64,000 nt of DNA from Phapecoctavirus DIJ07P2, in the sequence record OZ035771.1. One strand, 5' to 3'. Shown here piece after piece: positions 638-61,500 of the stretch. A program made the translations under genes and the position numbers. Below the pieces are notes generated by a model, which was not told the origin of the DNA, made no database searches, and saw only the letters and a list, made by a program, of their open reading frames with translations. Within the stretch, counting starts at the first letter, position 1. Each line of letters begins with the position of its first letter.

Positions 638-817
638 ATGGCACGTTTAGCAGACCATGAAATCTTTAAACCTATTCTGAACCACTATGATGAACTTAAA
701 GCAGTGTTGGATTGTTATAGAGAGGATGAAGAACGTTTGGAAGTCAATCTTAAGATAGTTCTGATGAAAGCTTTTCAAGACGGGCAAGCTAAAGTTTTAG
801 AAGGCATGAAAAAATGA
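638..817 (+). CDS. hypothetical small protein (59 aa)
   Basis: track ORF 602..817 trimmed to ATG 638 preceded by AAGGAG; stop overlaps next start. Confidence 0.5.
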   Translation: MARLADHEIFKPILNHYDELKAVLDCYREDEERLEVNLKIVLMKAFQDGQAKVLEGMKK

Positions 818-1356
818 GAATAACTGATGAATATGTATTCTTCTTTTCACATAAAGATGTGTTTAGTAATTGGTATATTGCACCCTTTACAGAAACTGAA
901 CCAGGTTACAATGAGACTTTCTGTTGTGTTGAGCAATATATGATGTGGCGTAAGGCTTTGCTGTTCAAGGATCATGCGATTGCAGCAGCTATCCTTGATC
1001 ACTCAACTATACGTGACAACGAGAGGAAACAAGCATACTACAAACGTATGGGTCGAGCGGTATCTGGTTTTAATAATGATATGTGGGAAGAGAACCGTGA
1101 GCGTATTGTTATGCGAGGTTTATGCTTGAAATATGTACAGAATCCAGATTTGTATGCAGACTTACACCTTTACCAATACAAAACGTTTGTTGAAGCAAGT
1201 CCTTACGATAAGGTTTACGGTATTGGAATGGGAATGTATGAACCAGGGGTGCTAAATCCGGTCAACTGGAAAGGGCAAAATCTTTTAGGTAAATATCATA
1301 ACAAACTGATCGAAATACTTTTCCCAGACAAAATACCGCAAAGACGATATTTGTGA
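814..1356 (+). CDS. NADAR (YbiA-like) domain protein
   Basis: N-terminal FFFSxxDxFSNWY and EQYMMWRKA motifs plus C-terminal YGIGMG...GQNLLGK resemble YbiA/NADAR proteins. Confidence 0.7.
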   Translation: MRITDEYVFFFSHKDVFSNWYIAPFTETEPGYNETFCCVEQYMMWRKALLFKDHAIAAAILDHSTIRDNERKQAYYKRMGRAVSGFNNDMWEENRERIVMRGLCLKYVQNPDLYADLHLYQYKTFVEASPYDKVYGIGMGMYEPGVLNPVNWKGQNLLGKYHNKLIEILFPDKIPQRRYL

Positions 1357-1412: not shown

Positions 1413-1447
1413 GGCTCCTACAGCACCGTAGAGAGCCTATTATTTTG
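1413..1447 (+). terminator. rho-independent terminator after NADAR gene
   Basis: nested hairpin GGCTC-CTAC..GTAG-GAGCC followed by T-rich tract. Confidence 0.5.
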
Positions 1448-1598
1448 TCCTATACAAACCCTTGTCTTTTTCAGTTTGCATCACTAGGATTCGATCTGAG
1501 TGGGTTCCTGAAGGTCTGCCAATAAGATTAAAGGTTATCTCAAATTCCCACTACCTATTATCTCAAAAATCCCTCAAATTATTTAAACTTTTTAAGAA

Positions 1599-1784
1599 TT
1601 TACAAAAGTGAAAGTTGAAAACCAAAATTTAAAGTTTAGGAAAATTATCTTAAAATGTCAGATACAAAACAAAACTCAAAAGTCAAGGAAAATTTTAAAA
1701 ATTTTGCGCGCCCACAGTATTTAAAGTTTTTTTGCTTTTACAAAAATGAAAGTACAAAAGCAAAATTTAAAGTTTACAAAAATT
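1599..1784. repeat. two ~47-bp AT-rich direct repeats
   Basis: TTACAAAAGTGAAAGTTGAAAACCAAAATTTAAAGTTTAGGAAAATT (1599-1646) vs TTACAAAAATGAAAGTACAAAAGCAAAATTTAAAGTTTACAAAAATT (1737-1784). Confidence 0.55.
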
Positions 1785-1796
1785 TATGCAGATGGG

Positions 1797-1899
1797 AATG
1801 AGAAGAGTTCTCATATGGAAATGCAAATGATAATGATTCGCATTTAGGTTTATAAATGAGATTGATTCTTATTTGATAAGGTAAATGATAATCATTCTC
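1797..1899. promoter_or_regulatory. Fur-box-like operator cluster (two 19-mers plus a palindrome)
   Basis: GCAAATGATAATGATTCGC (1823-1841) and GTAAATGATAATCATTCTC (1881-1899) match GATAATGATAATCATTATC at 14/19 and 16/19; palindrome ATGAGAAgagTTCTCAT at ~1797-1814. Confidence 0.4.
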
Positions 1900-2161
1900 A
1901 TTTAGAGAATGACGCGCAGGGGCGGTGTTTGTCTCGCGCTCCCGTGTCCCCTCGCCATGTAATAAGAATAACAGATCCAGCCAGGAAAGCAAGCGATTAT
2001 TTTATCTTTACATTTCTTTACAAATATATAGCGCCCAGCCTACCGGCGATCAACCTTCCAACCAGCGCCCTGGTATGTTAGCCCCGCCTTTACGCCGTGG
2101 GGGTGGCGCTTCCTCTTCTGTATGTAAAACAGTATAAGCCCGATCCCTGGGCTTGTCAAGA

Positions 2162-2428: not shown

Positions 2429-2537
2429 GGTGTCGCCCTTTCTTTGTTGTGCGCCCTGGTTGGCGCGGTAGAAAGATGATAGCCCTTTCCTTTATATATA
2501 GCAAGCAAAAAGAAAATAAAAAAGATTGAAAAAGTGA

Positions 2538-2595
2538 TTGACGTTCGCCAGGTGGCGGCATAATATTTACCACGTAGGGCGGCAATGGTGCCGCT
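2538..2595 (+). promoter_or_regulatory. early promoter / 5' hairpin cassette 1
   Basis: -35 TTGACG 2538, 17-nt spacer, -10 TAATAT 2561, CACGTAGGGCGG box, stem GCGGC/GCCGC 2578-2595. Confidence 0.6.
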
Positions 2596-2615
2596 CATTA
2601 TTTGGAATTAAGATC

Positions 2616-2813
2616 ATGGCAACATTGCACATTGTGGCGAAAGCTGGACAAATCAACGTAGTAGTAAACGGTTTTACTGAGTTCAGTCATCCCCAGGATG
2701 ATCATGAAACGGTTTTATCTTTCATTGATTCACTGTTAGAAATGGGAGTCATTACAGAAGACCAGCACGCTACAAAATGCAAACGCGTTAATCAGATTGC
2801 AGGAATAGAATAA
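2616..2813 (+). CDS. hypothetical small protein (65 aa)
   Basis: track ORF 2538..2813 trimmed to ATG 2616 downstream of the cassette. Confidence 0.55.
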   Translation: MATLHIVAKAGQINVVVNGFTEFSHPQDDHETVLSFIDSLLEMGVITEDQHATKCKRVNQIAGIE

Positions 2814-2819
2814 AAAGTA

Positions 2820-2878
2820 TTGACAACAACCAACAACCTGATAAGATGTATCACATAAGGCGGGAAATGGTTTCCCGC
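2820..2878 (+). promoter_or_regulatory. early promoter / 5' hairpin cassette 2
   Basis: -35 TTGACA 2820, -10 TAAGAT 2842, CACATAAGGCGGG box, stem GCGGGA/TCCCGC 2860-2878. Confidence 0.6.
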
Positions 2879-2902
2879 TCACAACAGAAGAGAGAAATCA
2901 TC

Positions 2903-3175
2903 ATGGCATCATATAGCGCAACAATGATCGTAGCTGGTACCACTGGTAAACCTATGAGCGGTGGCGGATCTTTCGCTAATATTAATATTGATGGGCGTTT
3001 ATCCCTGGACGCAGCGATCACCGTGGCGCGGGAAACATTTAAGAAAGAATGTGATTTCAACAAGCAAGATTATTTAGGTTTTGCTATTGAAAAAACGGCG
3101 CGTTTTGTTGATTATAAAAGTCCGAAAATGGTTGATACTACACTAAAAGCGCAAGATGTAGCCTTTTTGCTTTAA
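2903..3175 (+). CDS. hypothetical small protein (90 aa)
   Basis: ATG 2903 after conserved ACAACAGAAGAGAGAAATCATC leader; track ORF 2846..3175 trimmed. Confidence 0.6.
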   Translation: MASYSATMIVAGTTGKPMSGGGSFANINIDGRLSLDAAITVARETFKKECDFNKQDYLGFAIEKTARFVDYKSPKMVDTTLKAQDVAFLL

Positions 3176-3178
3176 GGC

Positions 3179-3233
3179 TTGACATTAACGAATAATTTGT
3201 TAATATGTTACATAAAGCGGGAACTATTCCCGC
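3179..3233 (+). promoter_or_regulatory. early promoter / 5' hairpin cassette 3
   Basis: -35 TTGACA 3179, -10 TAATAT 3201, stem GCGGGA/TCCCGC 3217-3233. Confidence 0.55.
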
Positions 3234-3251
3234 TATTTGTAAGGTGGTAGA

Positions 3252-3509
3252 ATGTTTTACATCAAATTAAAAGGTCACGTGATCGCGTTCAAGGATAACG
3301 CTTTTTACAGATTAGCAAAATATGCGTTAATACATCCCCATTATGTTTATATAAGGGGGCGTGATGAAATAAATATCTTTGATCAAACAACATGCGAGAA
3401 CATCGAGATCCGCAAGGTTGGCGTACGTGACTATCGTACATCTTTCTACCCTTGCAAGGATTCAGCAAGTCTTTTTAAAGTATGCCAATTGTTGAAAAAA
3501 GGTGGTTAA
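3252..3509 (+). CDS. hypothetical protein (85 aa)
   Basis: track ORF; GGTGG RBS. Confidence 0.6.
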   Translation: MFYIKLKGHVIAFKDNAFYRLAKYALIHPHYVYIRGRDEINIFDQTTCENIEIRKVGVRDYRTSFYPCKDSASLFKVCQLLKKGG

Positions 3510-3510
3510 T

Positions 3511-4068
3511 ATGGGCCGCGAATATGTGATCCAGTCTTGGGTAAAACATGAAGCAGATGATCCGCGCATCATTCCTGATTATCTTGTCGATGAATCCACG
3601 GGCTATAGCGGGGAGCAAATAGGTAACAGATTAGCACGTAGTAACGGCAACGTAAAAGCGCGTTATGTGCGCCCTGGCTGGCTGGCAAATGGTAACGCTG
3701 ATTTATCCAGTGCGGAAGATGCGAGCGACGGCGCGAAAGATAATCCTTTGTACAAAGTTGATCCGGCTTTTCGTGTCCTGGATGAATACCCCAGCAAGAT
3801 AGCGGCGCTCGATCAGGCCCTGGAAAGTAAGCGCATCACCTGGACCGCTTACAACATGGCAAAAAACGTACTTGATGGTAAATTGATTCAAGCTGAAAGA
3901 AAATTAGCCAAAATTGCAGCCATAGCCCAGGAGGAAGACGAGGAGACAACGGAAGAGGAAGAGTACGAAGAGATCCCGCCGTTGTTGTGTGTTGATGCTT
4001 TTCCTGATTATCAGCCGACAGAGGAAGAAAAAAGGATCGCACTAGAAAACTTTGAAAATAGTCTTTGA
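3511..4068 (+). CDS. hypothetical protein with acidic C-terminus (185 aa)
   Basis: track ORF 3502..4068 trimmed to ATG 3511 (AAGGTGG 5 nt upstream); C-terminal EEDEETTEEEEYEE. Confidence 0.55.
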   Translation: MGREYVIQSWVKHEADDPRIIPDYLVDESTGYSGEQIGNRLARSNGNVKARYVRPGWLANGNADLSSAEDASDGAKDNPLYKVDPAFRVLDEYPSKIAALDQALESKRITWTAYNMAKNVLDGKLIQAERKLAKIAAIAQEEDEETTEEEEYEEIPPLLCVDAFPDYQPTEEEKRIALENFENSL

Positions 4069-4122
4069 CATATCGCCGCCACTGGCATAATATTTACCAC
4101 GTAGGGCGGCAATGGTGCCGCT
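4065..4122 (+). promoter_or_regulatory. early promoter / 5' hairpin cassette 4
   Basis: -35 TTGACA 4065 overlapping previous stop, -10 TAATAT 4088, stem GCGGC/GCCGC. Confidence 0.6.
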
Positions 4123-4150
4123 CATAGTGAAATTATGCAAGAGGCTTACA

Positions 4151-4246
4151 ATGATTAATAAAGGAAATAGCTTGACGGTTGGAACGATTAACGCTATCAT
4201 TCTCGCCGTTCCATTTTGGGTTGTAGTAGCGGCTATTATTTTCTAA
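4151..4246 (+). CDS. hydrophobic micro-protein (31 aa, single TM helix)
   Basis: ATG 4151 after AGAGG; MINKGNSLTVGTINAIILAVPFWVVVAAIIF; below 60-aa track cutoff. Confidence 0.45.
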   Translation: MINKGNSLTVGTINAIILAVPFWVVVAAIIF

Positions 4247-4255
4247 AAAATATTC

Positions 4256-4316
4256 TTGACAACGTTTTTTAATCTGATAAGATGTATCACATAGGGCGGC
4301 GGAATACTTCCCCGCC
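4256..4316 (+). promoter_or_regulatory. early promoter / 5' hairpin cassette 5
   Basis: -35 TTGACA 4256, -10 TAAGAT 4278, stem GGCGGCGG/CCCCGCC. Confidence 0.6.
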
Positions 4317-4337
4317 AAAACAAAAAAGGGTAACACA

Positions 4338-4700
4338 ATGAGCAAGCAAATCAATACTATCATGTTTAATCTGGTATCTTTCCGCGATGATATGAAAAAT
4401 TTACCACGTGAAACGGTTGATATTCATGTTTCAGCTTATCGCGCCCTTATTGACATGTTACCGCTAAAACGTGATCAACATGCCGCTAATATGATGCTTA
4501 ATGCTATGCTTAAAAAGATGATTCAAACGGATCTCACCCTGGCATATGAGTATCAAGGGCGCTTATATGCAAATTACAACAGAGCGGTACCTGGTCTGGG
4601 AAGTACTGAAGAGTTGCACGGCTTAAACCTGGATCAAAACACTTGGGATAGTATGCGCCGCGTTATGGTATGGGCCGAAAGCGGTAAAATTTACGAATAA
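4338..4700 (+). CDS. hypothetical protein (120 aa)
   Basis: track ORF directly downstream of cassette 5. Confidence 0.6.
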   Translation: MSKQINTIMFNLVSFRDDMKNLPRETVDIHVSAYRALIDMLPLKRDQHAANMMLNAMLKKMIQTDLTLAYEYQGRLYANYNRAVPGLGSTEELHGLNLDQNTWDSMRRVMVWAESGKIYE

Positions 4701-4706
4701 AAACGG

Positions 4707-4763
4707 TTGACACTGTTTTTTATTCTGGTATAGTTTATCACGTAGGGCGGCAATGGTGCCGCC
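4707..4763 (+). promoter_or_regulatory. early promoter / 5' hairpin cassette 6
   Basis: -35 TTGACA 4707, -10 TATAGT 4729, stem GCGGC/GCCGC. Confidence 0.6.
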
Positions 4764-4783
4764 AACAATAAAAGGTTAACATC

Positions 4784-4963
4784 ATGACCATCATTGCAAA
4801 AACTGAGATTATAGGTTTAGATTCGATCCTCCTGGCTTATGAGGAAACTTTAAAAATGTATGTAGTGACCTATGGTGATTATGTGCGTGAATACGAATAC
4901 ATTGATCTTGCTTTCGAATGTTACATTCGCCAGGTCAATAAAGCCTATAACGATTATCGTTAA
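4784..4963 (+). CDS. hypothetical micro-protein (59 aa)
   Basis: ATG 4784 after AAAGG; 60 codons; below track cutoff. Confidence 0.5.
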   Translation: MTIIAKTEIIGLDSILLAYEETLKMYVVTYGDYVREYEYIDLAFECYIRQVNKAYNDYR

Positions 4964-4982
4964 AAGTTTTAGTCTTATACTA

Positions 4983-5034
4983 TTGACAATGAGTGATAGT
5001 ATAAGCATAATAACTTTTATCGGGAATACTTCCC
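4983..5034 (+). promoter_or_regulatory. early promoter / weak hairpin cassette 7
   Basis: -35 TTGACA 4983; short stem GGGAA/TTCCC 5021-5034. Confidence 0.45.
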
Positions 5035-5059
5035 ACTAACCAAAAAAGAGAGTAATATC

Positions 5060-5425
5060 ATGGCTATTAATATCAATGTTTCCTCTTATGCTACCCTGGC
5101 TGACACGGCTAAAATTGAATTATCCAGCATTGAGGCGGTGCATATTAGCGCCCGTCGTTGGTTTCAACAGTCCTACGGTAACACATATTTTTCTTTAATG
5201 GTTGACGTTGAGATCGGCGGTAAACTGATCGAGGTGGTTAACGTTCCGTTTCAATATGGTTATGGTGATCATTTTGATACCGTCGCCCTGGAAGAATTTA
5301 GCAAGGTTATTAATATGGAAGGTAAAGAGTTTTCACGCGGCGCGTATCTTTCCCGTTTTTGCCGTGATAATGGGATCACTGTATACAGTCATGCGAGCGA
5401 TGTTAAACGTAAAAAAGATTTATAA
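5060..5425 (+). CDS. hypothetical protein (121 aa)
   Basis: track ORF; conserved leader and ATG-GCT start. Confidence 0.6.
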   Translation: MAININVSSYATLADTAKIELSSIEAVHISARRWFQQSYGNTYFSLMVDVEIGGKLIEVVNVPFQYGYGDHFDTVALEEFSKVINMEGKEFSRGAYLSRFCRDNGITVYSHASDVKRKKDL

Positions 5426-5431
5426 AAAGCA

Positions 5432-5490
5432 TTGACAGCACGAATAAAAAGAGTAAACTGTATTACATAGAGAGCGGGAACACTTCCCGC
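5432..5490 (+). promoter_or_regulatory. early promoter / 5' hairpin cassette 8
   Basis: -35 TTGACA 5432, -10 TAAACT ~5455, stem GCGGGAA/TTCCCGC. Confidence 0.55.
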
Positions 5491-5515
5491 CTCACTGAAA
5501 AAAGAGATTAACATC

Positions 5516-5755
5516 ATGGCTAAATCAAAAATGTTCTTAGGTCACAAAAATAAAACTCATTGGAATGTAAGCCTTTGGATTAATAACGATGAATCGTTAT
5601 ATCGGTTGGCGAAAGAATTTATCGCCGCTAATACTAATCGTAATGATGCTGCCCGTGATATGATGTTATTCCTGGAACAAACTGGACAAGATAAAACTCC
5701 AGACGGTTTCAAGTATAGCACTACAGCGATCCGCGCCGCGATGGTTGGAATGTAA
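5516..5755 (+). CDS. hypothetical protein (79 aa)
   Basis: track ORF. Confidence 0.6.
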   Translation: MAKSKMFLGHKNKTHWNVSLWINNDESLYRLAKEFIAANTNRNDAARDMMLFLEQTGQDKTPDGFKYSTTAIRAAMVGM

Positions 5756-5768
5756 AGGAGATATAAAA

Positions 5769-5849
5769 ATGAAACATCGTTCTACCTATCTAACAAAACG
5801 TTTTAGCTTAGATCATAAATTGGGCTATTACGGAAGAAATAGAAAATAA
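5769..5849 (+). CDS. possible micro-ORF (26 aa)
   Basis: ATG 5769 with strong AAGGAG 7 nt upstream. Confidence 0.3.
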   Translation: MKHRSTYLTKRFSLDHKLGYYGRNRK

Positions 5850-5850
5850 T

Positions 5851-5910
5851 TTGACAACGTTTAAAATTAGTGTAAGATGTATCACATAGGGCGGGAAGTG
5901 GTTTCCCGCC
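5851..5910 (+). promoter_or_regulatory. early promoter / 5' hairpin cassette 9
   Basis: -35 TTGACA 5851, -10 TAAGAT 5873, stem GCGGGAA/TTCCCGC. Confidence 0.6.
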
Positions 5911-5932
5911 AACAACAGAGAGATTAAAGATT

Positions 5933-6160
5933 ATGGCTATCAATATTGTTCGCGTATCCGGCACCGTTGGCACTTCCCAAGTTATTGCAGTTGTAACAAA
6001 CAAAAAGATTAATGATGTATGTGAAAGCTTGAATAAGTGGGCTATTGTTAATTTTGGGGAATATGCAAGCGTCGAGTACATCGAATCCTACCAGGTGCCA
6101 ACCATCAGCCTAACCGATCTCAACGTTGATCGCTTGTTGTGCCTGGATGAATTAATCTGA
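5933..6160 (+). CDS. hypothetical protein (75 aa)
   Basis: track ORF. Confidence 0.6.
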   Translation: MAINIVRVSGTVGTSQVIAVVTNKKINDVCESLNKWAIVNFGEYASVEYIESYQVPTISLTDLNVDRLLCLDELI

Positions 6161-6170
6161 AAAAAGATTG

Positions 6171-6227
6171 TTGACACCGGAAAGAAAAAGAGTAGAATAT
6201 ATTACATAGGGCGGCAATGGTGCCGCT
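6171..6227 (+). promoter_or_regulatory. early promoter / 5' hairpin cassette 10
   Basis: -35 TTGACA 6171, -10 TAGAAT 6194, stem GCGGC/GCCGC. Confidence 0.6.
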
Positions 6228-6251
6228 CACAACAGAAGAGAGATTATCACG

Positions 6252-6467
6252 ATGGCTAATATCCGCACTTTACTGAAAAATGCAAGTCAAGTTTTATTTT
6301 CAGATGATGAGTATTTCAATAAAGACATTACAGGCGTGAAAAATTTAAAAGACGTGAAGGATGTTATCGGTATTCGTGGATCTTTACGTAAAGGTGACTA
6401 CTATGGTAACAAGGTGCAATATAAACTGTCAAAGGATTACAATTTTACTTTGACAATTATTTCATAA
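6252..6467 (+). CDS. hypothetical protein (71 aa)
   Basis: track ORF. Confidence 0.6.
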   Translation: MANIRTLLKNASQVLFSDDEYFNKDITGVKNLKDVKDVIGIRGSLRKGDYYGNKVQYKLSKDYNFTLTIIS

Positions 6468-6473
6468 AACCGC

Positions 6474-6536
6474 TTGCAATACTGCAAAAATAAAGTAAAC
6501 TGTATTCATCAAGGCGGTGGAATAGCCAACCGCCTA
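6474..6536 (+). promoter_or_regulatory. early promoter / 5' hairpin cassette 11
   Basis: -35 TTGCAA 6474, -10 TAAACT ~6497, stem AGGCGGT/ACCGCCT. Confidence 0.5.
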
Positions 6537-6558
6537 ACAAAGAGAAGAGGAAAACATC

Positions 6559-6726
6559 ATGATCACTTTCGCTACCCGTGAAGCCGCTCGCAACGTTGCA
6601 CGTAAAGTTAACGCCGCCAACCTGGGCGCTACGCTTAAAGCTCCGGTAAAAGATGAATCAGGCAAATGGATCTTCCCTGGTCTGCGTCATGCTGACAAGT
6701 TAGGTACTTTAAGCCTTAAAAAATAA
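6559..6726 (+). CDS. hypothetical basic micro-protein (55 aa)
   Basis: ATG 6559 after AGAGGAAAAC leader; below track cutoff. Confidence 0.5.
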   Translation: MITFATREAARNVARKVNAANLGATLKAPVKDESGKWIFPGLRHADKLGTLSLKK

Positions 6727-6729
6727 TCG

Positions 6730-6766
6730 TTGACTTTTCGTTATAGCGCCTTACAATGGGCGCTAT
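6730..6766 (+). promoter_or_regulatory. early promoter / hairpin cassette 12 (-10 inside the loop)
   Basis: -35 TTGACT 6730, -10 TACAAT 6752 lying in the loop of stem TAGCGCC/GGCGCTA. Confidence 0.45.
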
Positions 6767-6801
6767 AGAGAAGAGAAACCACTACTAACAAGGAAACCAT
6801 T

Positions 6802-7023
6802 ATGATCACTTTCGCTATTGTCGCCGTTGTTGCTGGTCAAGTTTACGTAAATGAGACATTTACTACAGAAGACAAGGCAGCAGGAGATATAACCGCCGTT
6901 TACAATGAGTGCAAGGCAGTAGAAAGGATGTTAGCGCCTTGTATGCTAATGAGTGAACGCCAGGACGGAATAACAGTATTTACTAACATTGGAACAGGGT
7001 ACCAAATGGTAGTAACAAAATAA
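6802..7023 (+). CDS. hypothetical protein (73 aa)
   Basis: track ORF. Confidence 0.55.
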   Translation: MITFAIVAVVAGQVYVNETFTTEDKAAGDITAVYNECKAVERMLAPCMLMSERQDGITVFTNIGTGYQMVVTK

Positions 7024-7026
7024 AGC

Positions 7027-7083
7027 TTGACACCGATTTAATTTTTAGTAAACTGTTACACGTAGGGCGGGAATAGTTCCCGC
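7027..7083 (+). promoter_or_regulatory. early promoter / 5' hairpin cassette 13
   Basis: -35 TTGACA 7027, -10 TAAACT 7049, stem GCGGGA/TCCCGC 7067-7083. Confidence 0.6.
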
Positions 7084-7102
7084 TCAAAAAGAGAGAAAGA
7101 TC

Positions 7103-7456
7103 ATGAAAGCACAAAATGCAATTAAAGAGTACATCCTTGCCGCTATCGGTTTTAATGATTACGGTATTACAACAGAAAAAGAGAAGATCGCGGAATTGAT
7201 GCGCCGTTTTAATTCCGAGTACTGGTACCCTGATAACCAATCACGTTTTAATTATAGTATTGTTAAAGCACTTGCATCATGGTTACAAGGTTTGCCATCA
7301 GATATTAATATCGCTTTCGAATATTGGGAAGTGGATCGCTTGTTAACATCCTGGGGATACATTAAAGAGAATAGCAGCGATGATAAAATCCAACGAGAAA
7401 GGGAAAATTATTGGCTTTATATTGCAGGCGTGATCCTTGCTTGCTCTTATGAATGA
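7103..7456 (+). CDS. hypothetical protein (117 aa)
   Basis: track ORF. Confidence 0.6.
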   Translation: MKAQNAIKEYILAAIGFNDYGITTEKEKIAELMRRFNSEYWYPDNQSRFNYSIVKALASWLQGLPSDINIAFEYWEVDRLLTSWGYIKENSSDDKIQRERENYWLYIAGVILACSYE

Positions 7457-7462
7457 TAAACC

Positions 7463-7516
7463 TTGACAATTTTACAAAACAGTTTAAATTAACAATATAG
7501 CGGCAATGGTGCCGCT
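7463..7516 (+). promoter_or_regulatory. early promoter / 5' hairpin cassette 14
   Basis: -35 TTGACA 7463; stem AGCGGC/GCCGCT 7499-7516. Confidence 0.5.
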
Positions 7517-7535
7517 CATATAAAGAGGAAACAAA

Positions 7536-7682
7536 ATGAATACATCTAATCGCGCAGAAAAAATTCAATCTTCCAAGATCCGCAAGGCCTGGAACGAGGA
7601 AGTGATCCGCAAAGGCGACAAGCGTAATAAAACAAAGCGCGGGAAGAGTGACAAATATAATTGGATGGATTTAGAGGATTAA
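7536..7682 (+). CDS. basic micro-protein (48 aa)
   Basis: ATG 7536 after AAGAGGAAAC; lysine/arginine-rich; below track cutoff. Confidence 0.5.
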   Translation: MNTSNRAEKIQSSKIRKAWNEEVIRKGDKRNKTKRGKSDKYNWMDLED

Positions 7683-7688
7683 CATAAC

Positions 7689-7716
7689 AAGGGCGCACCA
7701 AGCGCCCTTTCTTTTT
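7689..7716 (+). terminator. rho-independent terminator (conserved hairpin type, copy 1)
   Basis: AAGGGCGCACCAAGCGCCCTT followed by TCTTTTT. Confidence 0.6.
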
Positions 7717-7737
7717 ATATGCAGAGGATAAACAAAG

Positions 7738-7923
7738 ATGACTTTAAACGAGCTTAAAACAGCCTACAACGCAACATTAAAAATAGCCGTGCGTTACCGT
7801 GATGCGTATGGTTTTATCGCGCAGGGCGTGATCCTGGGCTTTTCTGACGATGGTTTGATCTATGTTGATGCACATCACAACAAGGTTAAACCTGAAAACG
7901 TCATTAATATAAAATATCTTTAA
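7738..7923 (+). CDS. hypothetical protein (61 aa)
   Basis: track ORF; AGAGGA RBS. Confidence 0.5.
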   Translation: MTLNELKTAYNATLKIAVRYRDAYGFIAQGVILGFSDDGLIYVDAHHNKVKPENVINIKYL

Positions 7924-7929
7924 AAATGG

Positions 7930-7988
7930 TTGACACCATAACCGGACCTGTTAAACTGTATTACATCAGGCGGGGAATAGTTCCCCAC
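7930..7988 (+). promoter_or_regulatory. early promoter / 5' hairpin cassette 15
   Basis: -35 TTGACA 7930, -10 TAAACT 7952, stem GGGG/CCCC. Confidence 0.5.
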
Positions 7989-8008
7989 CATACAAAAAGG
8001 TAAATATT

Positions 8009-8215
8009 ATGATCACCGCAAAACAAGAAAAAATCATTATCGACGTTGCAGCCGTTGCCGCTATCGCTATTATTGGATCTTATTATGATACCCGTTTCCC
8101 GTCGGCTATGCATGAGGTCGCCGCCGTTGCATCAGTTGGCGTACTGTTTTACGTTGGTAAACGCTATTTATCACCAATGATTAACAAGCTGACACCGTGG
8201 AAAAATAAAGGTTGA
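8009..8215 (+). CDS. small membrane protein (68 aa)
   Basis: track ORF; hydrophobic stretches. Confidence 0.55.
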   Translation: MITAKQEKIIIDVAAVAAIAIIGSYYDTRFPSAMHEVAAVASVGVLFYVGKRYLSPMINKLTPWKNKG

Positions 8216-8266
8216 TCCTGTTTTACATTATGTTATAGTTATCGTGTAGGGCGGCAATGGTGCCGC
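8212..8266 (+). promoter_or_regulatory. early promoter / 5' hairpin cassette 16
   Basis: -35 TTGATC 8212, -10 TATAGT 8234, stem GGCGGC/GCCGC. Confidence 0.5.
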
Positions 8267-8286
8267 GCCCCTTTGAGGATGCAATC

Positions 8287-8571
8287 ATGAGTAAAGCTAA
8301 CACCGTGCTAATGTTTTCCCTGATTAATGATCTCGCTTACTTGTCCAACATGACGCAGGAGGGTAACACATTAACGGCAACATTCACCAATAAGCTTGAC
8401 CGAGTGATCATCGTCTCACTGAAAACAGTTAGTAAAGGCTTTTACTTGTTAGCTTATCATTGTATCACTGATACCGATGAGACAAGCCAGGACTATAGCG
8501 CCCCTTTCCCTGAATCAATGGCACGGGAGATCATCGCCGCCGTTGTAAATGATGGTTTGTTTACTGCATAA
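8287..8571 (+). CDS. hypothetical protein (94 aa)
   Basis: track ORF 8257..8571 trimmed to ATG 8287. Confidence 0.55.
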   Translation: MSKANTVLMFSLINDLAYLSNMTQEGNTLTATFTNKLDRVIIVSLKTVSKGFYLLAYHCITDTDETSQDYSAPFPESMAREIIAAVVNDGLFTA

Positions 8572-8589
8572 AATAATTTAGAAAAAGGC

Positions 8590-8646
8590 TTGCAATCATT
8601 TTGAGATAGTGTATATTTAATTCATAGGGCGGCGGGAATAGTTCCC
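8590..8646 (+). promoter_or_regulatory. early promoter / 5' hairpin cassette 17
   Basis: -35 TTGCAA 8590, -10 TATATT 8612, stem GGGAA/TTCCC. Confidence 0.45.
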
Positions 8647-8669
8647 AAAGCAAACGAGAGGATTACACG

Positions 8670-8789
8670 ATGAGCAAGTACACAGTAGAATACACGGTAG
8701 AGAATCCGGCAGTATCCGAAGGTAAAAAGATGACATTTACCATCAGTATAATCGCTTTCGTTGTCACTATCTTATCAATCATCTTATAA
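8670..8789 (+). CDS. hydrophobic micro-protein (39 aa)
   Basis: ATG 8670 after GAGAGG; C-terminal TM segment; below track cutoff. Confidence 0.45.
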   Translation: MSKYTVEYTVENPAVSEGKKMTFTISIIAFVVTILSIIL

Positions 8790-8799
8790 GGTGCACACC

Positions 8800-8961
8800 A
8801 TGAAAACAACAGATATTATCAAAGAGATCGCCCTTGCCGCTGGCGTTGAGATCGAGGAAGTGATCGCGCTCAATCTTACAGAAAACGATCTGCGCAACTA
8901 TGAAGCGGAAAGCGTGAAAGCAAGTGGCGCGGTCCTGGCATATAATCCGGCTAACAAATAG
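8800..8961 (+). CDS. hypothetical micro-protein (53 aa)
   Basis: track ORF 8761..8961 trimmed to ATG 8800. Confidence 0.45.
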   Translation: MKTTDIIKEIALAAGVEIEEVIALNLTENDLRNYEAESVKASGAVLAYNPANK

Positions 8962-8962
8962 T

Positions 8963-9017
8963 TTGACAAGCTGAATCAACCTGATAAGATGTATCACATA
9001 GGGGCGACAAGCGCCCC
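8963..9017 (+). promoter_or_regulatory. early promoter / 5' hairpin cassette 18
   Basis: -35 TTGACA 8963, -10 TAAGAT 8985, stem GGGGCG/CGCCCC. Confidence 0.6.
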
Positions 9018-9038
9018 GCCTAACAGAGAGATAGAATC

Positions 9039-9317
9039 ATGACCATCGCCAAATTATCCGCCGAAGAAATCGAACAAGTGCTAACTACTAACCTGGAACA
9101 ATGGAAACGTGAGGCAGATATACAATCAGCACAATGGCTTAACGAGAAGTTAACACCGGATGATCTGAGTAAGATTATAGATCCTCAATTCTACGAAGAT
9201 ATTCACGACACCGTTTTAAGCGTCGAGGATGTACTTGATAAGCATTATATTGCTACTGATTTGCAGGTTTACGGGCGTAAAAACTTTATTACTATTCACG
9301 ACATTTACAATAACTAA
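9039..9317 (+). CDS. hypothetical protein (92 aa)
   Basis: track ORF. Confidence 0.6.
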   Translation: MTIAKLSAEEIEQVLTTNLEQWKREADIQSAQWLNEKLTPDDLSKIIDPQFYEDIHDTVLSVEDVLDKHYIATDLQVYGRKNFITIHDIYNN

Positions 9318-9325
9318 GGGATAAC

Positions 9326-9454
9326 ATGAATCCGAAAGATATGCAAGCATGGAAAGGGTACGACGATCTAAGCGCCTTGCGCAATAAGTCAAGCCGTAAC
9401 CTTAGACGGTTAGAAGCAAAGAAAAAGAAAAAACAGTTTGACAAGTCCGCTTAA
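9326..9454 (+). CDS. basic micro-protein (42 aa)
   Basis: ATG 9326 after TAAGGGATAAC; end overlaps next promoter; below track cutoff. Confidence 0.4.
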   Translation: MNPKDMQAWKGYDDLSALRNKSSRNLRRLEAKKKKKQFDKSA

Positions 9455-9494
9455 TCTGGTAAAGTGTATCTCGTAGGGCGGCAATGATGCCGCT
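9438..9494 (+). promoter_or_regulatory. early promoter / 5' hairpin cassette 19
   Basis: -35 TTGACA 9438, -10 TAAAGT 9460, stem GGCGGC/GCCGC (loop AATGAT). Confidence 0.55.
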
Positions 9495-9514
9495 CACAAG
9501 AAGAGAGAAAAATC

Positions 9515-9799
9515 ATGAAGATCACAAAAAGCCTAACTAATTATGCAGCACGTCGCGGATTATGCTTAACCGTTGAAAACTCAGGGAAAGAAGACTTTTT
9601 GTGTTTTTGGGAGCTTGAAAATGATTGCGAGTGGATGTTTTCTTATTCTATCTGCGAAGATCAAAACGGTTGTTTGTTAACCTGGCGCGGTAATATCTAT
9701 TTACCGGAAGAAATTAAAGAAGAGTTACCAGGTACGATCATGACAGAGAGACAGCTTAAGGAAGTGATCAATTTTGTAGGGCAAAACATTAAAAAATAA
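9515..9799 (+). CDS. hypothetical protein (94 aa)
   Basis: track ORF. Confidence 0.6.
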   Translation: MKITKSLTNYAARRGLCLTVENSGKEDFLCFWELENDCEWMFSYSICEDQNGCLLTWRGNIYLPEEIKEELPGTIMTERQLKEVINFVGQNIKK

Positions 9800-9800
9800 T

Positions 9801-9862
9801 TTGACAGCACGCAAACAACGTAGTAAAGTTTACCACATAGGGCGGCGGAATGGTCCACCGCT
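9801..9862 (+). promoter_or_regulatory. early promoter / 5' hairpin cassette 20
   Basis: -35 TTGACA 9801; CACATAGGGCGG box; GC stem ~9841-9862. Confidence 0.55.
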
Positions 9863-9884
9863 CACAACAGAAGAGAAACAAATC

Positions 9885-10055
9885 ATGATCCCGACTATGT
9901 TTTATGTATCGCGCAAAGGTCACAATATTTTTTGGTCTGAAGATTTAAATGAAGCCATGACGTTTGCCCGTGATCGTGTTGCTATCGGTGGCGTTAACAT
10001 CACCGTAACCGATGAAAATGGCATTGAATACTATAACGGCGACGATGAAGAGTAA
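9885..10055 (+). CDS. hypothetical micro-protein (56 aa)
   Basis: track ORF 9801..10055 trimmed to ATG 9885. Confidence 0.5.
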   Translation: MIPTMFYVSRKGHNIFWSEDLNEAMTFARDRVAIGGVNITVTDENGIEYYNGDDEE

Positions 10056-10062
10056 TTAATAA

Positions 10063-10082
10063 GGCGGGGAATACTTCCCGCC
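10063..10082 (+). other. orphan GC hairpin of the cassette type, no promoter
   Basis: GGCGGGGAATACTTCCCGCC directly after a stop codon with no -35/-10 upstream. Confidence 0.5.
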
Positions 10083-10121
10083 ACGCAGTGAATTTTCCGT
10101 TTGGGAAGTAAAAAATAAATC

Positions 10122-10182
10122 TTGACGATAATTTGTTATCTGATAGAATGTATTTCGTAGGGCGGGGCAATAAGGCAAGCCC
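10122..10182 (+). promoter_or_regulatory. early promoter / 5' hairpin cassette 21
   Basis: -35 TTGACG 10122, -10 TAGAAT 10144, TCGTAGGGCGG box. Confidence 0.55.
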
Positions 10183-10199
10183 ACAAAGAGGAAAATAAA

Positions 10200-10568
10200 A
10201 TGAGCAAATCAGCAATTAAAGCACTTGAAAAAGCACAAGAAGTGATCGCAACGTCAACCACTGGCGCAAAGGTTAATCTCGTTTGTTATCTGACAGATGA
10301 AACTATCCGTAAAAATTGGCGTAATGCTGATTTACTGGCTTGCTTATTGATTAATAGTGTCGCTAATGCTTTCCAGTGTGAAACAGCCGAGAGCCTGGAG
10401 GAAAACTTGTTTGATAATATGGATCAAGCCATTGAAACCTATATACAATCAAACCTGGATAGCTGGAACAGTAAAACATGGCCCGACAATTTACGCGATA
10501 CAACTGATCAACTGATCCGCCTTGCCCTGATGGTTGAACGCGATAACGTTTACAACAGCACAAAGTAA
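10200..10568 (+). CDS. hypothetical protein (122 aa)
   Basis: track ORF. Confidence 0.6.
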   Translation: MSKSAIKALEKAQEVIATSTTGAKVNLVCYLTDETIRKNWRNADLLACLLINSVANAFQCETAESLEENLFDNMDQAIETYIQSNLDSWNSKTWPDNLRDTTDQLIRLALMVERDNVYNSTK

Positions 10569-10576
10569 GATTATAC

Positions 10577-10598
10577 AAGGGCGCACTAAGCGCCCTTT
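10577..10598 (+). terminator. terminator-like hairpin (conserved type, copy 2)
   Basis: AAGGGCGCACTAAGCGCCCTT; weak T-tract. Confidence 0.4.
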
Positions 10599-10632
10599 AA
10601 CGTAAAGAAATGTAAATAATGCGCTATCCCTA

Positions 10633-10668
10633 TTGACAGGGGATCGGCGTTATATTATATTTAACTTA
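10633..10668 (+). promoter_or_regulatory. sigma70-like promoter without hairpin
   Basis: TTGACA 10633, 17-nt spacer, TATATT. Confidence 0.45.
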
Positions 10669-10706
10669 CTGGCAGCAAACAACGAAACGAAACAAAGGAC
10701 AACATC

Positions 10707-11126
10707 ATGAACATTAAATCAAATAATCCAGCTTACTCCTTCGATAACGCTTTTTGTCACGGTAGCGCCGCCAAAGGCTTCGAAATCGATGGTAAATTGG
10801 TTATCGTGAACGTTGACGGGGAAGAGGTTGCAGTGTATCCGGTAAACGATGTTAAAAGCCGTTTACAATGCCGCATGGATGTTACCGCATATCAGCTTGA
10901 TCCGGTCCGTGTAGTTGCCCTGGTATTAGAGGAAGAGATCAAAGCAATGCATCACAGTAATAAGTTTATTGGTGACGCGCAGGATAATATGAACGTTTGC
11001 CGCCATAAAGTTAATGAAGCATTGAAAGAATGCGGTTTTAAGGATCTGATGATTAAACGTGATGAAAAATTCCGCTTTCGTAATGACCTGGCAAACCGGA
11101 TCTACTCAATCTATGAAGCTTTATAA
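10707..11126 (+). CDS. hypothetical protein (139 aa)
   Basis: track ORF. Confidence 0.6.
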   Translation: MNIKSNNPAYSFDNAFCHGSAAKGFEIDGKLVIVNVDGEEVAVYPVNDVKSRLQCRMDVTAYQLDPVRVVALVLEEEIKAMHHSNKFIGDAQDNMNVCRHKVNEALKECGFKDLMIKRDEKFRFRNDLANRIYSIYEAL

Positions 11127-11139
11127 TCGACAACAAAAC

Positions 11140-11169
11140 AAGGGGCGCACAAAGCGCCCTTTCTTTTTG
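11140..11169 (+). terminator. rho-independent terminator (conserved type, copy 3)
   Basis: AAGGGGCGCACAAAGCGCCCTT followed by TCTTTTTG. Confidence 0.6.
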
Positions 11170-11199
11170 CCCGAACAATGTTGATAGCTTTCGCCTATG

Positions 11200-11680
11200 A
11201 AAAACCGACACAGAACAAAACTGAATAAATCGCGGTATCGAGCTAATCAACCAGCAAACGAATAACCATACCTCCCAGGGTTACAGGCTGTTAGAGAGCC
11301 ATTTAGAGCGGTTAAAATCGATCAACAACCAACAACAAACCATCAAAAACACCCTTTTACCTCCTTTCTAGTGCAATGATAACCATTATCATCTACCCAT
11401 GATTATCTATGCAATATAAGCGCATAATTATAATGTTGATAATAGTTCGCAACAACTAACCAACAAACAACATAAAACAATAAGCAAACTAATCATAATC
11501 AAAGGAATAATAGCAAGATGATTGATAACGACAAACAATCGAACCATGATGAATACTAAGCAAGATAACGATAACACGACAAAACAACCAACTAACGAAC
11601 AATAACAAACGAAACCATTAAAATAATAACTATTAGCAAAATAGTGCCTGAATGAAATCATTACAAAACGAATCATTCAC
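11200..11680. repeat. A+C-rich, strand-asymmetric low-complexity tract
   Basis: plus strand dominated by CAA/ACA/AAC repeats with very few G; no credible ORF. Confidence 0.5.
11372..11390. promoter_or_regulatory. Fur-box-like 19-mer
   Basis: TGCAATGATAACCATTATC; 3' 15 nt match Fur consensus at 14/15. Confidence 0.35.
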
Positions 11681-61498: not shown

Positions 61499-61500
61499 AC

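What the first reader, a model, noticed from the sequence alone, without database searches (positions are those of the whole stretch)
1450..1790. AT-rich desert with two ~47-bp direct repeats next to the Fur-like boxes
TTACAAAAGTGAAAGTTGAAAACCAAAATTTAAAGTTTAGGAAAATT (1599-1646) recurs as TTACAAAAATGAAAGTACAAAAGCAAAATTTAAAGTTTACAAAAATT (1737-1784), with AAAATTTAAAGTTTA fully conserved. The 1.2-kb interval 1357-2537 has no convincing plus-strand gene. Repeats of this size in an AT-rich gap are typical of iteron or host-factor (IHF/DnaA-type) binding arrays.
Basis: seen in the sequence. Interest (0 to 1): 0.4.

Follow-up and report, generated by a model that had tools for sequence, protein, structure and literature searches.

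The report
Conserved repeat array in phage gap
The two AT-rich repeats are real and form a conserved, non-coding array of likely protein-binding sites in phAPEC8-like and rV5-like coliphages, most plausibly part of a replication origin or a T5-like boundary element, though its function has not been shown.

Summary
The repeat is 67-72 nt long (1575-1646 and 1713-1784), 82% identical, and far above chance. It lies in the most AT-rich stretch of a ~150-kb Phapecoctavirus genome.

It is not an ORF, a known RNA family, a general promoter, a DnaA or IHF array, or the genome terminus.

Comparison shows it is functional DNA:
- Both copies are better conserved than their surroundings in a lineage ~20% diverged.
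- Each unit has two invariant boxes at a fixed ~46-bp distance, separated by a variable spacer.
- About 20 loci from Stephanstirmvirinae and Vequintavirinae carry 2-4 such units (period 63-76 bp) at the same position, though the unit sequence differs between lineages.
- The order is always direct repeats, then Fur-like palindromes, then a conserved GC-rich element, then a conserved promoter pointing back at them.

The locus sits 10.3-10.9 kb inside the inferred right genome end, at the start of the early-promoter block. T5-like phages have the same order, direct repeats then Fur-like palindromes, ~10 kb from their left end, in the candidate injection-stop region.

My best reading is an iteron-like protein-binding array at a transcription-activated origin (about 0.3). 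A T5-like boundary element is the main rival. No function has been tested.

The parts
1413..1447 (.). GC-rich hairpin that ends the upstream plus-strand gene block. It also has a T-rich tail on the minus strand, so it may work as a bidirectional terminator.
   Evidence: Sequence. Annotated as a terminator in phAPEC8 and ASO2A. Conserved in the divergent lineage.
1535..1567 (+). Two copies of TTATCTCAAA (1535-1544 and 1558-1567). A variant, TTATCTTAAA, lies at 1645-1654.
   Evidence: Found only here in a ~149-kb relative genome. TRF reports a 24-bp period. The core TATCTCAAA recurs, always on the plus strand and 440-580 nt left of the anchor, in Seunavirus, Henunavirus and other loci: 26 copies against 0.43 expected.
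1575..1646 (+). Direct repeat unit R1, holding Box A (TATTTAAACTTTTT, 1580-1593) and Box B (AAAATTTAAAGTTTA, 1624-1638).
1647..1712 (+). Segment between the repeats, probably a decayed middle unit. It retains AAAACTCAAAAGTCAAGGAAAATT and a conserved GCGCGC at 1706-1711.
   Evidence: Repeat family D4 is 79% identical to the Box B region. Relatives have three units of 66-75 bp, and 138 = 2 x 69. Only 61-64% identical between lineages, with a 1-nt indel.
1713..1784 (+). Direct repeat unit R2, holding Box A (TATTTAAAGTTTTT, 1718-1731) and Box B (AAAATTTAAAGTTTA, 1762-1776).
1797..1902 (.). Four Fur-like palindromes, starting at 1797, 1826, 1855 and 1884, with strict 29-bp spacing. This is a neighbouring module, not the finding itself.
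   Evidence: The best box matches the 19-mer Fur consensus at 16/19 positions.
1906..2124 (-). Conserved GC-rich non-coding element, presumably transcribed leftward. It includes the tandem CTTTACA pair (2006-2022) and a hairpin with compensatory changes.
   Evidence: 346 phage records match it. Alignments show frame-breaking indels, so it is not coding.
2131..2159 (-). Sigma-70-type promoter TTGACA-17-TATACT pointing leftward at the GC element, the Fur-like boxes and the repeats.
   Evidence: Scores 11/12, the best match in the region. A minus-strand promoter lies 112-124 nt from the anchor in 21 of the 26 loci scanned, with scores of 9-12/12; 5 loci lack one in that range.

Best explanation
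The two repeats are DNA-level binding units for a sequence-specific protein, in the manner of iterons. Each unit is bipartite, with Box A (TATTTAAAsTTTTT) and Box B (AAAAnnAAAAtTTnAAAgTTT) a fixed ~46 bp apart, and relatives carry 2-4 units in tandem. The units form the repeat module of a conserved composite non-coding locus: TATCTCAAA motifs, direct repeats, Fur-like palindromes, a GC-rich element, and an inward-pointing sigma-70 promoter. The most likely process served is initiation of phage DNA replication. A phage or host protein would bind the boxes cooperatively. Leftward transcription from the conserved promoter at 2159-2131 would run through the GC-rich element towards the array. Opening, and perhaps RNA priming, would occur in the exceptionally AT-rich repeat DNA, as at the T7 primary origin, T4 oriF/oriG, lambda ori and ColE1. 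Shown here: the repeats, their conservation, the unit architecture, uniqueness in the genome, extreme AT content, and the conserved promoter pointing at them. Inferred: protein binding, transcription through the locus, and all replication function. I put the DNA-level protein-binding array at about 0.65 and origin function specifically at about 0.3; the confidence given is for the full statement including origin function.
For: 1. Statistics: repeat score 34 against 9.9 +/- 1.3 in shuffles.
2. Constraint: in the phiWec/PsgM04F lineage, R1 and R2 are 78-82% identical to the window copies. The adjacent non-repeat DNA is 46-50% (1448-1531) and 61-64% (inter-repeat) identical. Within Phapecoctavirus, 1440-1800 is at least 95% identical in 63 of 70 matching records.
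3. Parallel change: AAAATTTAAAG became AAATTCTAAAG in both copies of the other lineage.
4. Unit architecture: ten units from four lineages share invariant boxes at fixed spacing with a variable spacer.
5. Positional conservation with sequence turnover: Justusliebigvirus, KP2025, Seunavirus, Vequintavirus, Henunavirus, W70 and phiTE all have 3-4 units of 63-76-bp period at the same place. Vequintavirinae use a different motif, GGTACTyGAtcg...TTTTTC.
6. The motifs occur only at this locus in a ~149-kb relative genome.
7. It is the most AT-rich 200-300 bp of the genome.
8. A strong promoter at a fixed distance points at the array, with no conserved ORF downstream.
9. The units do not themselves hold conserved sigma-70 promoters, which favours binding sites over a promoter array.
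Against: No initiator-type protein was recognised among the flanking genes. Those scanned are a NADAR protein, a CapR/T5orf172 homing endonuclease, small unknown proteins, and a generic AAA ATPase ~2.3 kb upstream. Cumulative GC skew turns where transcription changes direction, not at this locus. There are no DnaA or IHF consensus sites. Units of 65-75 bp are much longer than classical 17-22-bp iterons. In Vequintavirinae the repeat region is only moderately AT-rich, 33-37% GC. The architecturally similar T5 region is stated not to be T5's origin (Davison preprint 10.1101/866236). No transcript, binding or replication data exist for this phage group in the searched literature.
Confidence: 0.3

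Rival explanations
1. The locus is the counterpart of T5 Repeat Region 3. The repeats and the Fur-like palindromes would assemble a nucleoprotein or structural barrier at the inner boundary of a ~10.5-kb terminal early segment. That barrier would pause DNA entry, giving a first-step-transfer-like delivery, and/or insulate the early segment transcriptionally.
For: The DTR of the close relative Schickermooser maps to window 12078-12406, so the repeats lie 10.3-10.9 kb (~7%) inside the right end. In Vequintavirus LL12 the PhageTerm DTR lies ~11.8-12.3 kb from the homologous locus, on the same side. The intervening 2.5-12 kb holds 20 strong plus-strand sigma-70 promoter matches and only small ORFs. 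The T5-like phage 3sent1 has the same inward order ~9.6-10.6 kb from its left end: early genes, DnaA boxes, 7 Fur-like palindromes, 8 direct repeats. This lies inside Davison's Repeat Region 3, the candidate injection stop signal, and its palindrome array gives BLAST matches to window 1792-1904.
Against: The iss function is not mapped or proven even in T5. The paired DnaA boxes of T5 are absent here. The DTR here is 329 bp, not ~10 kb. No ORF longer than 188 aa exists in the terminal segment, so no A1-sized protein. Genes of the segment run away from the locus, whereas in 3sent1 they run towards it. Two-step injection has never been reported for these myoviruses. The Fur-like similarity could be convergence on the same host factor. 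The physical ends of this particular phage are inferred by homology, not measured.
Confidence: 0.2
2. The repeats act as RNA. They would be the AU-rich 3' part of a ~0.7-kb leftward non-coding transcript that starts near 2124 and ends at the 1447-1413 hairpin, serving for example as a protein sponge or decoy.
For: The leftward promoter is conserved and followed by a conserved element with a covarying hairpin (pairs AU9/GC5, CG12/GC2, AU5/CG4). There is no conserved ORF before the hairpin at 1447-1413.
Against: Strand composition is not conserved by inspection: the window's plus strand is A-rich (AT skew about +0.2), while the Vequintavirinae units read T-rich on the same strand. A hairpin with a U-rich tail at 1913-1891 may stop the transcript before it reaches the repeats. 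There are no Rfam hits on either strand. Overall covariation in the GC element is weak. Known repeat antitoxin RNAs of the ToxI type are, from memory, near-identical 34-45-nt tandem units next to a toxin gene. Here the units are 65-75 nt, 82% alike and separated by a decayed spacer, and I saw no ToxI-like sequence by eye in the homologous phiTE locus.
Confidence: 0.12
3. The locus is a transcriptional control or insulator region. The repeats would be sites for a regulator or nucleoid protein, or UP-like elements, that control the neighbouring promoters or separate the upstream operon from the early block.
For: The locus sits exactly between the terminator of the upstream plus-strand block and the first early promoter at 2538. 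Weak promoter-like matches occur in both units: plus-strand TTTACA-18-CAAAAT in both by the scan, and minus-strand TTGTAA-16-AATAAT in R1 by the scan with AATACT in R2 seen by eye. AT-rich tracts favour binding of nucleoid-associated proteins.
Against: The promoter-like matches are weak (9/12) and absent from the units of KP2025, 4MG, GAP31 and JES2013. The nearest promoters are more than 340 bp away. The motifs are unique to this locus, so no regulon is visible.
Confidence: 0.15
4. The locus is a packaging or terminus-related recognition site. The direct repeats would bind the small terminase, as at lambda cosB, P1 pac, or the repeat arrays flanking the T7 terminal repeats.
For: Fur-like boxes occur only in this locus and in or near the DTR (11375, 12152, 12331), apart from one weak 4-mismatch hit at 59902. 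They also occur in the DTRs of LL12 and KPP-1. Two records break inside the locus: phiWec189 has a 148-bp end overlap there, and ETEC-TG starts at about window 1528.
Against: Experimentally supported DTRs in two subfamilies lie 10-12 kb away. The phiWec189 overlap is best read as the overlap of a circular assembly. Neither the repeat motifs nor the TATCTCAAA motif recur near the DTR.
Confidence: 0.06
5. The repeats are a functionless local duplication in junk DNA.
For: There are only two good copies, and the segment between them is decaying.
Against: The repeats are conserved above their flanks, have fixed box spacing, and have positional equivalents in about 20 loci from two subfamilies.
Confidence: 0.03

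Closest known systems
Iteron-type origins (lambda ori with O-protein iterons; plasmid Rep iterons such as pSC101, P1 and R6K)
   Same: Several direct repeats lie in or beside the most AT-rich DNA of the replicon. The repeat sequence is lineage-specific while the organisation is conserved. The motifs are unique in the genome.
   Different: Units are 65-75 bp and bipartite rather than 17-22 bp. Only two intact units are present in this phage. No Rep/O-type initiator, DnaA box or IHF site was found, and no origin activity is known.
Transcription-activated or transcription-primed origins (T7 primary origin: promoters phi1.1A/B plus an AT-rich region; T4 oriF/oriG; ColE1 RNA II). Comparison from established knowledge.
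   Same: A strong conserved promoter fires into a non-coding stretch that ends in very AT-rich DNA. The promoter-to-AT-rich distance of ~340-550 nt is similar to ColE1 RNA II.
   Different: The promoter is of host sigma-70 type. Four Fur-like palindromes sit between the promoter and the AT-rich DNA. R-loop or primer formation is untested.
Phage T5 Repeat Region 3 (candidate injection stop signal, iss; Davison, bioRxiv 10.1101/866236)
   Same: A ~1-kb untranslated region lies ~10 kb (7-8%) from a genome end, bordering a block of early genes. Reading inward from the terminus, both have a palindrome array that looks like Fur boxes and then direct repeats. The palindrome arrays are similar enough to give BLAST hits.
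   Different: T5 has paired DnaA boxes, 14-nt DRD repeats in 8-9 copies and a 10-kb terminal repeat. Here there is a GC-rich transcribed element, 72-nt AT-rich units and a 329-bp DTR. No A1-sized gene is present, and two-step transfer is not known for this group.
Terminase recognition regions (lambda cosB R sites with IHF; P1 pac hexamers; T7 repeat arrays beside the terminal repeat). Comparison from established knowledge.
   Same: Arrays of direct repeats lie beside sites for a host DNA-binding protein.
   Different: The locus is 10-12 kb from the DTR mapped in relatives.

Membership tests
Iteron-type replication origin | Multiple direct repeats that could bind an initiator | tested here: met
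   Two 72-nt units, giving four boxes, and 3-4 units in relatives. Binding itself was not tested.
Iteron-type replication origin | Adjacent AT-rich DNA-unwinding region | tested here: met
   Lowest GC of any 200- or 300-bp stretch in the window and in a ~149-kb relative genome. This is less extreme in Vequintavirinae.
Iteron-type replication origin | Cognate initiator gene at or near the repeats | tested here: inconclusive
   Pfam and PHROGs scans of flanking genes found NADAR, a homing endonuclease, unknown proteins and a generic AAA ATPase. No Rep, O or DnaA-like family appeared. The 88-aa neighbour does not co-vary with repeat type.
Iteron-type replication origin | Host-factor sites (DnaA boxes, IHF) | tested here: not met
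   No TTWTNCACA match and no WATCAANNNNTTR match without mismatch in 1357-2537.
Iteron-type replication origin | Strand-composition (GC skew) switch at the origin | tested here: not met
   Cumulative skew extremes lie at ~133 kb and ~16 kb of the relative genome and follow gene orientation. The locus is at 140.0-140.7 kb.
Iteron-type replication origin | Demonstrated origin activity | not testable with these tools
   Needs marker-frequency sequencing, 2D gels or plasmid replication assays.
T7-type origin or tandem promoter array | Each repeat carries a promoter | tested here: not met
   Only 9/12 sigma-70 matches in the window units, and none in the KP2025, 4MG, GAP31 or JES2013 units. The motif is absent elsewhere in the genome, so it is not a phage-specific promoter class.
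T5 Repeat Region 3 / injection stop signal | Large untranslated repeat region about 8% from a genome end, next to early genes | tested here: met
   805 bp of non-coding DNA lies 10.3-10.9 kb from the right end inferred from Schickermooser. The equivalent distance in LL12 is 11.8-12.3 kb. The early-promoter block occupies 2.5-12 kb. The ends are inferred by homology.
T5 Repeat Region 3 / injection stop signal | Conserved order of palindromes and direct repeats | tested here: met
   Reading inward from the terminus, both have Fur-like palindromes and then direct repeats.
T5 Repeat Region 3 / injection stop signal | Paired DnaA boxes (IRD'-spacer-IRC') | tested here: not met
   None in the window locus. 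They are present in 3sent1.
T5 Repeat Region 3 / injection stop signal | Lies within a ~10-kb terminal repeat that carries A1/A2 | tested here: not met
   The DTR is 329 bp. The largest ORF in 2538-12100 is 188 aa, and all eight ORFs of at least 95 aa belong to PHROG families of unknown function.
T5 Repeat Region 3 / injection stop signal | Two-step DNA transfer | not testable with these tools
   Needs interrupted-infection experiments.
Terminase recognition (pac/cos) site | Located at the physical genome ends | tested here: not met
   The DTR homologue is at 12078-12406. The LL12 DTR is ~12 kb from the locus.
Known RNA families (Rfam 15) | Covariance-model match | tested here: not met
   Only chance-level hits far below the gathering scores in 1200-2700, on both strands. 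No tRNA or tmRNA in the region.
Type III antitoxin-like RNA repeats (ToxI/pseudo-ToxI) | Near-identical 34-45-nt tandem repeats, usually beside an endoribonuclease toxin gene (feature recalled from memory) | tested here: not met
   Units are 65-75 nt, 82% alike and separated by a decayed spacer. I saw no ToxI-like sequence by eye at the homologous phiTE locus.

The most novel reading that the evidence does not exclude
phAPEC8-like and rV5-like myoviruses may carry a functional equivalent of the T5 injection-stop region. The AT-rich direct repeats plus the Fur-like palindromes would mark the inner edge of a ~10-12-kb terminal segment of sigma-70-driven early genes that enters or acts first. Two-step DNA delivery, or a Fur-dependent checkpoint on it, would then not be unique to T5-like siphoviruses. 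This reading also implies that the long-unexplained palindromes of the T5 iss region are Fur boxes.
Probability: 0.15. Interest if true: 0.8.

Novelty: new variant of a known kind. Interest (0 to 1): 0.5.

Why it matters
These phages are common coliphages and frequent therapy candidates, covering Phapecoctavirus, Justusliebigvirus and the rV5-like Vequintavirinae. No origin, control region or DNA-entry signal has been defined for them. In the papers I read, the rV5 genome paper marks a box in its genetic map only as non-coding, and no other paper I read describes this locus. This work defines a conserved, modular non-coding locus with precise, testable parts, and it gives experimenters exact targets for deletion, footprinting and origin mapping. 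It also links the locus to the unresolved T5 injection-stop region through a shared array of Fur-like palindromes. If Fur binds these arrays, phage replication or DNA entry would be tied to host iron status.

Tried and rejected
- Coding potential: the small ORFs at 1608-1724 and 1655-1801 are not conserved. The start codon is lost and there is a 1-nt indel in the phiWec lineage.
- Known RNA families: Rfam at E <= 10 gave nothing credible.
- 46-bp tandem periodicity: only 42% self-identity, so weak. The 138-bp repeat dominates, and TRF does not report it.
- General or late-type phage promoter: the motif is absent from the rest of the window and from a relative genome.
- Sigma-70 promoters inside the units: not conserved across lineages.
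- DnaA and IHF sites: none.
- GC skew: no signal at the locus.
- The 88-aa minus-strand neighbour as the repeat-binding protein: rejected. It is replaced by unrelated small ORFs in 4MG, GAP31 and KP2025, no equivalent ORF is evident in pEp01, and it is shared by W70, which has the other repeat type.
- Genome terminus at the locus: the phiWec189 record ends overlap by 148 bp here, but PhageTerm data for LL12 and the Schickermooser DTR place the ends 10-12 kb away.
- Pseudo-ToxI link through phiTE: I saw no ToxI-like sequence by eye at the locus.
- RNA structure of the GC element: weak on both strands, with one hairpin showing covariation.
- Literature: searches for origin, transcriptome or termini data on these genera returned nothing specific to this locus.

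Full report
**Identity and context**

The window comes from a phAPEC8-like myovirus (Phapecoctavirus, Stephanstirmvirinae). Region 1350-2550 is 99% identical to phages iGC_PHA_EC001 and SKA64, and 66 records cover at least 80% of it. The finding lies in a gap between two blocks.

On the left, a plus-strand gene block ends with a NADAR-domain gene at 814-1356, followed by a hairpin terminator at 1413-1447.

On the right lie a conserved minus-strand 88-aa ORF (2162-2428, phrog_19316) and, from 2538, a dense run of sigma-70-type promoters each followed by a small plus-strand gene.

**Checking the observation**

Both quoted strings are present, starting at 1600 and 1738, one base later than stated. 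They are 41/47 identical, and the 15-mer core is exact in both.

- The repeat is longer than reported: 1575-1646 and 1713-1784, 72 nt, 82% identical, 138 bp apart.
- Its ungapped score of 34 compares with 9.9 +/- 1.3 (maximum 16) in 200 dinucleotide-preserving shuffles.
- Each copy contains two related boxes 46 bp apart: TATTTAAAsTTTTT and AAAATTTAAAGTTTA.
- A global 46-bp periodicity is weak.
- The AT-richness is exceptional. 1581-1880 has the lowest GC of any 200- or 300-bp stretch in the window, and its homologue has the lowest in a ~149-kb relative genome.

**What it is not**

- It is not coding. The small ORFs lose their start codon and their frame in a diverged lineage.
- It is not a known RNA family or a tRNA.
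- It is not a general promoter class. The core motifs and TTATCTCAAA occur nowhere else in the window or in a whole relative genome.
- It is not a DnaA or IHF array.
- It is not marked by a GC-skew switch. The switches follow gene orientation, as was also found for rV5 (PMC3606486).
- It is not the genome terminus (see below).

**Comparative evidence for function**

Within Phapecoctavirus, 1440-1800 is at least 95% identical in 63 of 70 matching records.

In a lineage about 20% diverged (phiWec179, phiWec188, PsgM04F), both units persist at 78-82% identity. The neighbouring non-repeat DNA drops to 46-50% and 61-64%. Two adjacent positions of Box B changed identically in both copies, AAAATTTAAAG to AAATTCTAAAG. 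That fits gene conversion or co-evolution with a binding protein. The statistical support is modest: four parallel changes are seen, and my rough hand estimate (not a tool result) expects about 0.8.

Aligning ten units from the window, phiWec188, Justusliebigvirus alia and Klebsiella phage KP2025 shows two invariant boxes at a fixed distance, separated by a variable spacer. This is the signature of a bipartite protein-binding site.

Alia and KP2025 have three units with 66-75-bp periods. The window's 138-bp spacing is therefore best read as three units with a decayed middle one.

Vequintavirinae carry 3-4 units of the same period at the same position, but with a different sequence (GGTACTyGAtcg...TTTTTC). 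This holds for Seunavirus 4MG and GAP31, Vequintavirus JES2013, Henunavirus pEp_SNUABM_01, W70 and Certrevirus phiTE.

A scan of IMG/VR with a conserved anchor, added to the GenBank loci, gave 26 loci. About 20 of them show the same fixed layout:
- direct repeats 240-475 nt left of the anchor;
- Fur-like palindromes 146-250 nt left of it;
- a minus-strand sigma-70 promoter 112-124 nt right of it.

A second motif, TATCTCAAA, recurs distal to the repeats, always on the same strand, in both subfamilies. Sigma-70-like promoters are not consistently present inside the units.

**The neighbouring modules**

Four Fur-like palindromes (1797, 1826, 1855, 1884) are spaced exactly 29 bp apart.

Next comes a ~220-bp GC-rich element that matches 346 phage records and is almost never annotated as anything meaningful. 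Frame-breaking indels exclude coding. One hairpin shows compensatory changes, but the overall structure signal is weak.

The promoter TTGACA-17-TATACT at 2159-2131 is the best match in the region. An equivalent promoter lies at the same distance from the anchor in 21 of the 26 loci scanned. It points leftward through the GC element towards the palindromes and the repeats. That it is used, and how far transcription runs, are inferences.

**Genome ends and the T5 parallel**

Korf et al. reported a 328-bp terminal repeat for Schickermooser (PMC6563267). Its record ends share 329 bp, which map to window 12078-12406. The repeats therefore lie 10.3-10.9 kb, about 7% of the genome, inside the inferred right end.

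In Vequintavirus LL12, PhageTerm placed a 459-bp repeat (PMC6658697) about 12 kb from the homologous locus, on the same side.

The 148-bp end overlap of phiWec189 inside the locus is best explained as an assembly overlap.

Fur-like boxes occur in the genome only in this locus and in or near the DTR, apart from one weak hit at 59902. They also occur in the DTRs of LL12 and KPP-1.

T5-like phages match the palindrome array by BLAST. In 3sent1 the order reading inward from the left end is early genes, DnaA boxes, seven Fur-like palindromes, then eight direct repeats, at 9.6-10.6 kb. This lies inside Davison's Repeat Region 3, the candidate injection stop signal (10.1101/866236). That preprint never mentions Fur.

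**Interpretation**

That the repeats are a DNA-level, sequence-specific protein-binding array is well supported, at about 0.65. Which process the array serves is open.

I rank a transcription-activated replication origin first, at about 0.3. The supporting features are iteron-like units, the most AT-rich DNA of the genome, uniqueness of the motifs, and a conserved promoter firing into the array.

The alternatives are:
- a T5 Repeat-Region-3-like boundary or entry element, about 0.2;
- a transcriptional control or insulator region, about 0.15;
- an RNA-level role, about 0.12;
- a packaging-related site, about 0.06;
- functionless DNA, about 0.03.

Against the origin reading: no initiator was recognised nearby, there is no skew signal, there are no DnaA or IHF sites, and the T5 counterpart is said not to be T5's origin.

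**Novelty**

I found no description of this locus in the searchable literature. The rV5 paper's genetic map marks a box with no ORFs only as "non-coding", and I did not confirm that this box is the same locus. Some GenBank records annotate a bare repeat_region. The element is a new variant of known kinds, either iteron arrays or T5-type untranslated repeat regions, rather than a new category.

Noticed in passing
window 1797-1902; also 11375, 12152-12170 and 12331-12349: Fur-like palindromes (consensus AATGAGAATCATTCTCATT) occur as four boxes at exact 29-bp spacing beside the repeats. Otherwise they occur only in or near the inferred terminal repeat, apart from one weak hit at 59902. A whole relative genome shows the same restricted distribution.
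   Followed up: partly
window 1906-2159, minus strand: A conserved leftward sigma-70 promoter (2159-2131) is followed by a ~220-nt GC-rich non-coding element with one covarying hairpin. The element matches 346 phage records from Stephanstirmvirinae, Vequintavirinae and relatives. It is unannotated or mis-annotated as hypothetical proteins, and may be a new non-coding RNA or leader.
   Followed up: partly
window 12078-12406: This is the homologue of the 329-bp direct terminal repeat of phage Schickermooser, so the physical genome ends probably lie here. Its first 100 bp are the most AT-rich 100-bp stretch of the window.
   Followed up: partly
L013 (Salmonella phage 3sent1, T5-like) 833-1819: The palindromes and DRE/DRC repeats of T5 Repeat Region 3, the candidate injection stop signal, are Fur-box-like. 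Seven boxes lie between the eight DRD repeats and the DnaA boxes. The Davison preprint on this region does not mention Fur.
   Followed up: partly
L045 (phage LL12, MH491969.1) 736-763, minus strand: The PhageTerm-defined terminal repeat of Vequintavirus LL12 contains a dif-like site, GGTGCGCATAAT-GGGTAT-TATGTTAAAT. Both 11-nt XerC and XerD arms are identical to E. coli dif as I recall it. The site is absent from this window.
   Followed up: no
window 1535-1567 and 1645-1654: The motif TTATCTCAAA occurs twice, plus one variant. Its core TATCTCAAA is conserved in position and orientation in Seunavirus, Henunavirus and other Vequintavirinae, even though their main repeats differ.
   Followed up: partly
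window 2538-2567 and 2131-2159: Several early-type promoters carry a GC-rich hairpin inside the -35/-10 spacer. At 2159-2131 the hairpin also serves as the apparent terminator of the 88-aa gene. The hairpin sequence varies between lineages, and by eye its pairing seems to be kept in some of them.
   Followed up: no
window 2500-12000: Twenty strong plus-strand sigma-70 promoter matches and only small ORFs (188 aa at most). All eight ORFs of at least 95 aa belong to PHROG families of unknown function. This is a probable host-takeover early block ending at the genome terminus.
   Followed up: partly
window 60233-60413: The second most AT-rich stretch of the window has a 56-nt imperfect inverted repeat and short AT repeats, about 1 kb upstream of the tRNA cluster (61424-63822).
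   Followed up: no
L041/L042 (phiWec189) and L007 (ETEC-TG): Two GenBank records break inside this locus. The phiWec189 ends overlap by 148 bp, running from one Fur-like box to the next. ETEC-TG starts at about window 1528. These are probably assembly artefacts, but they could hint at nicks or coverage anomalies here.
   Followed up: partly
window 814-1356 and the gene upstream of position 266: The last gene before the gap encodes a NADAR-domain protein. Some records name a gene in this interval GTP cyclohydrolase II, which may be this one. The gene before the small ORFs is a CapR/T5orf172-type homing-endonuclease-like protein that varies in length between relatives.
   Followed up: partly
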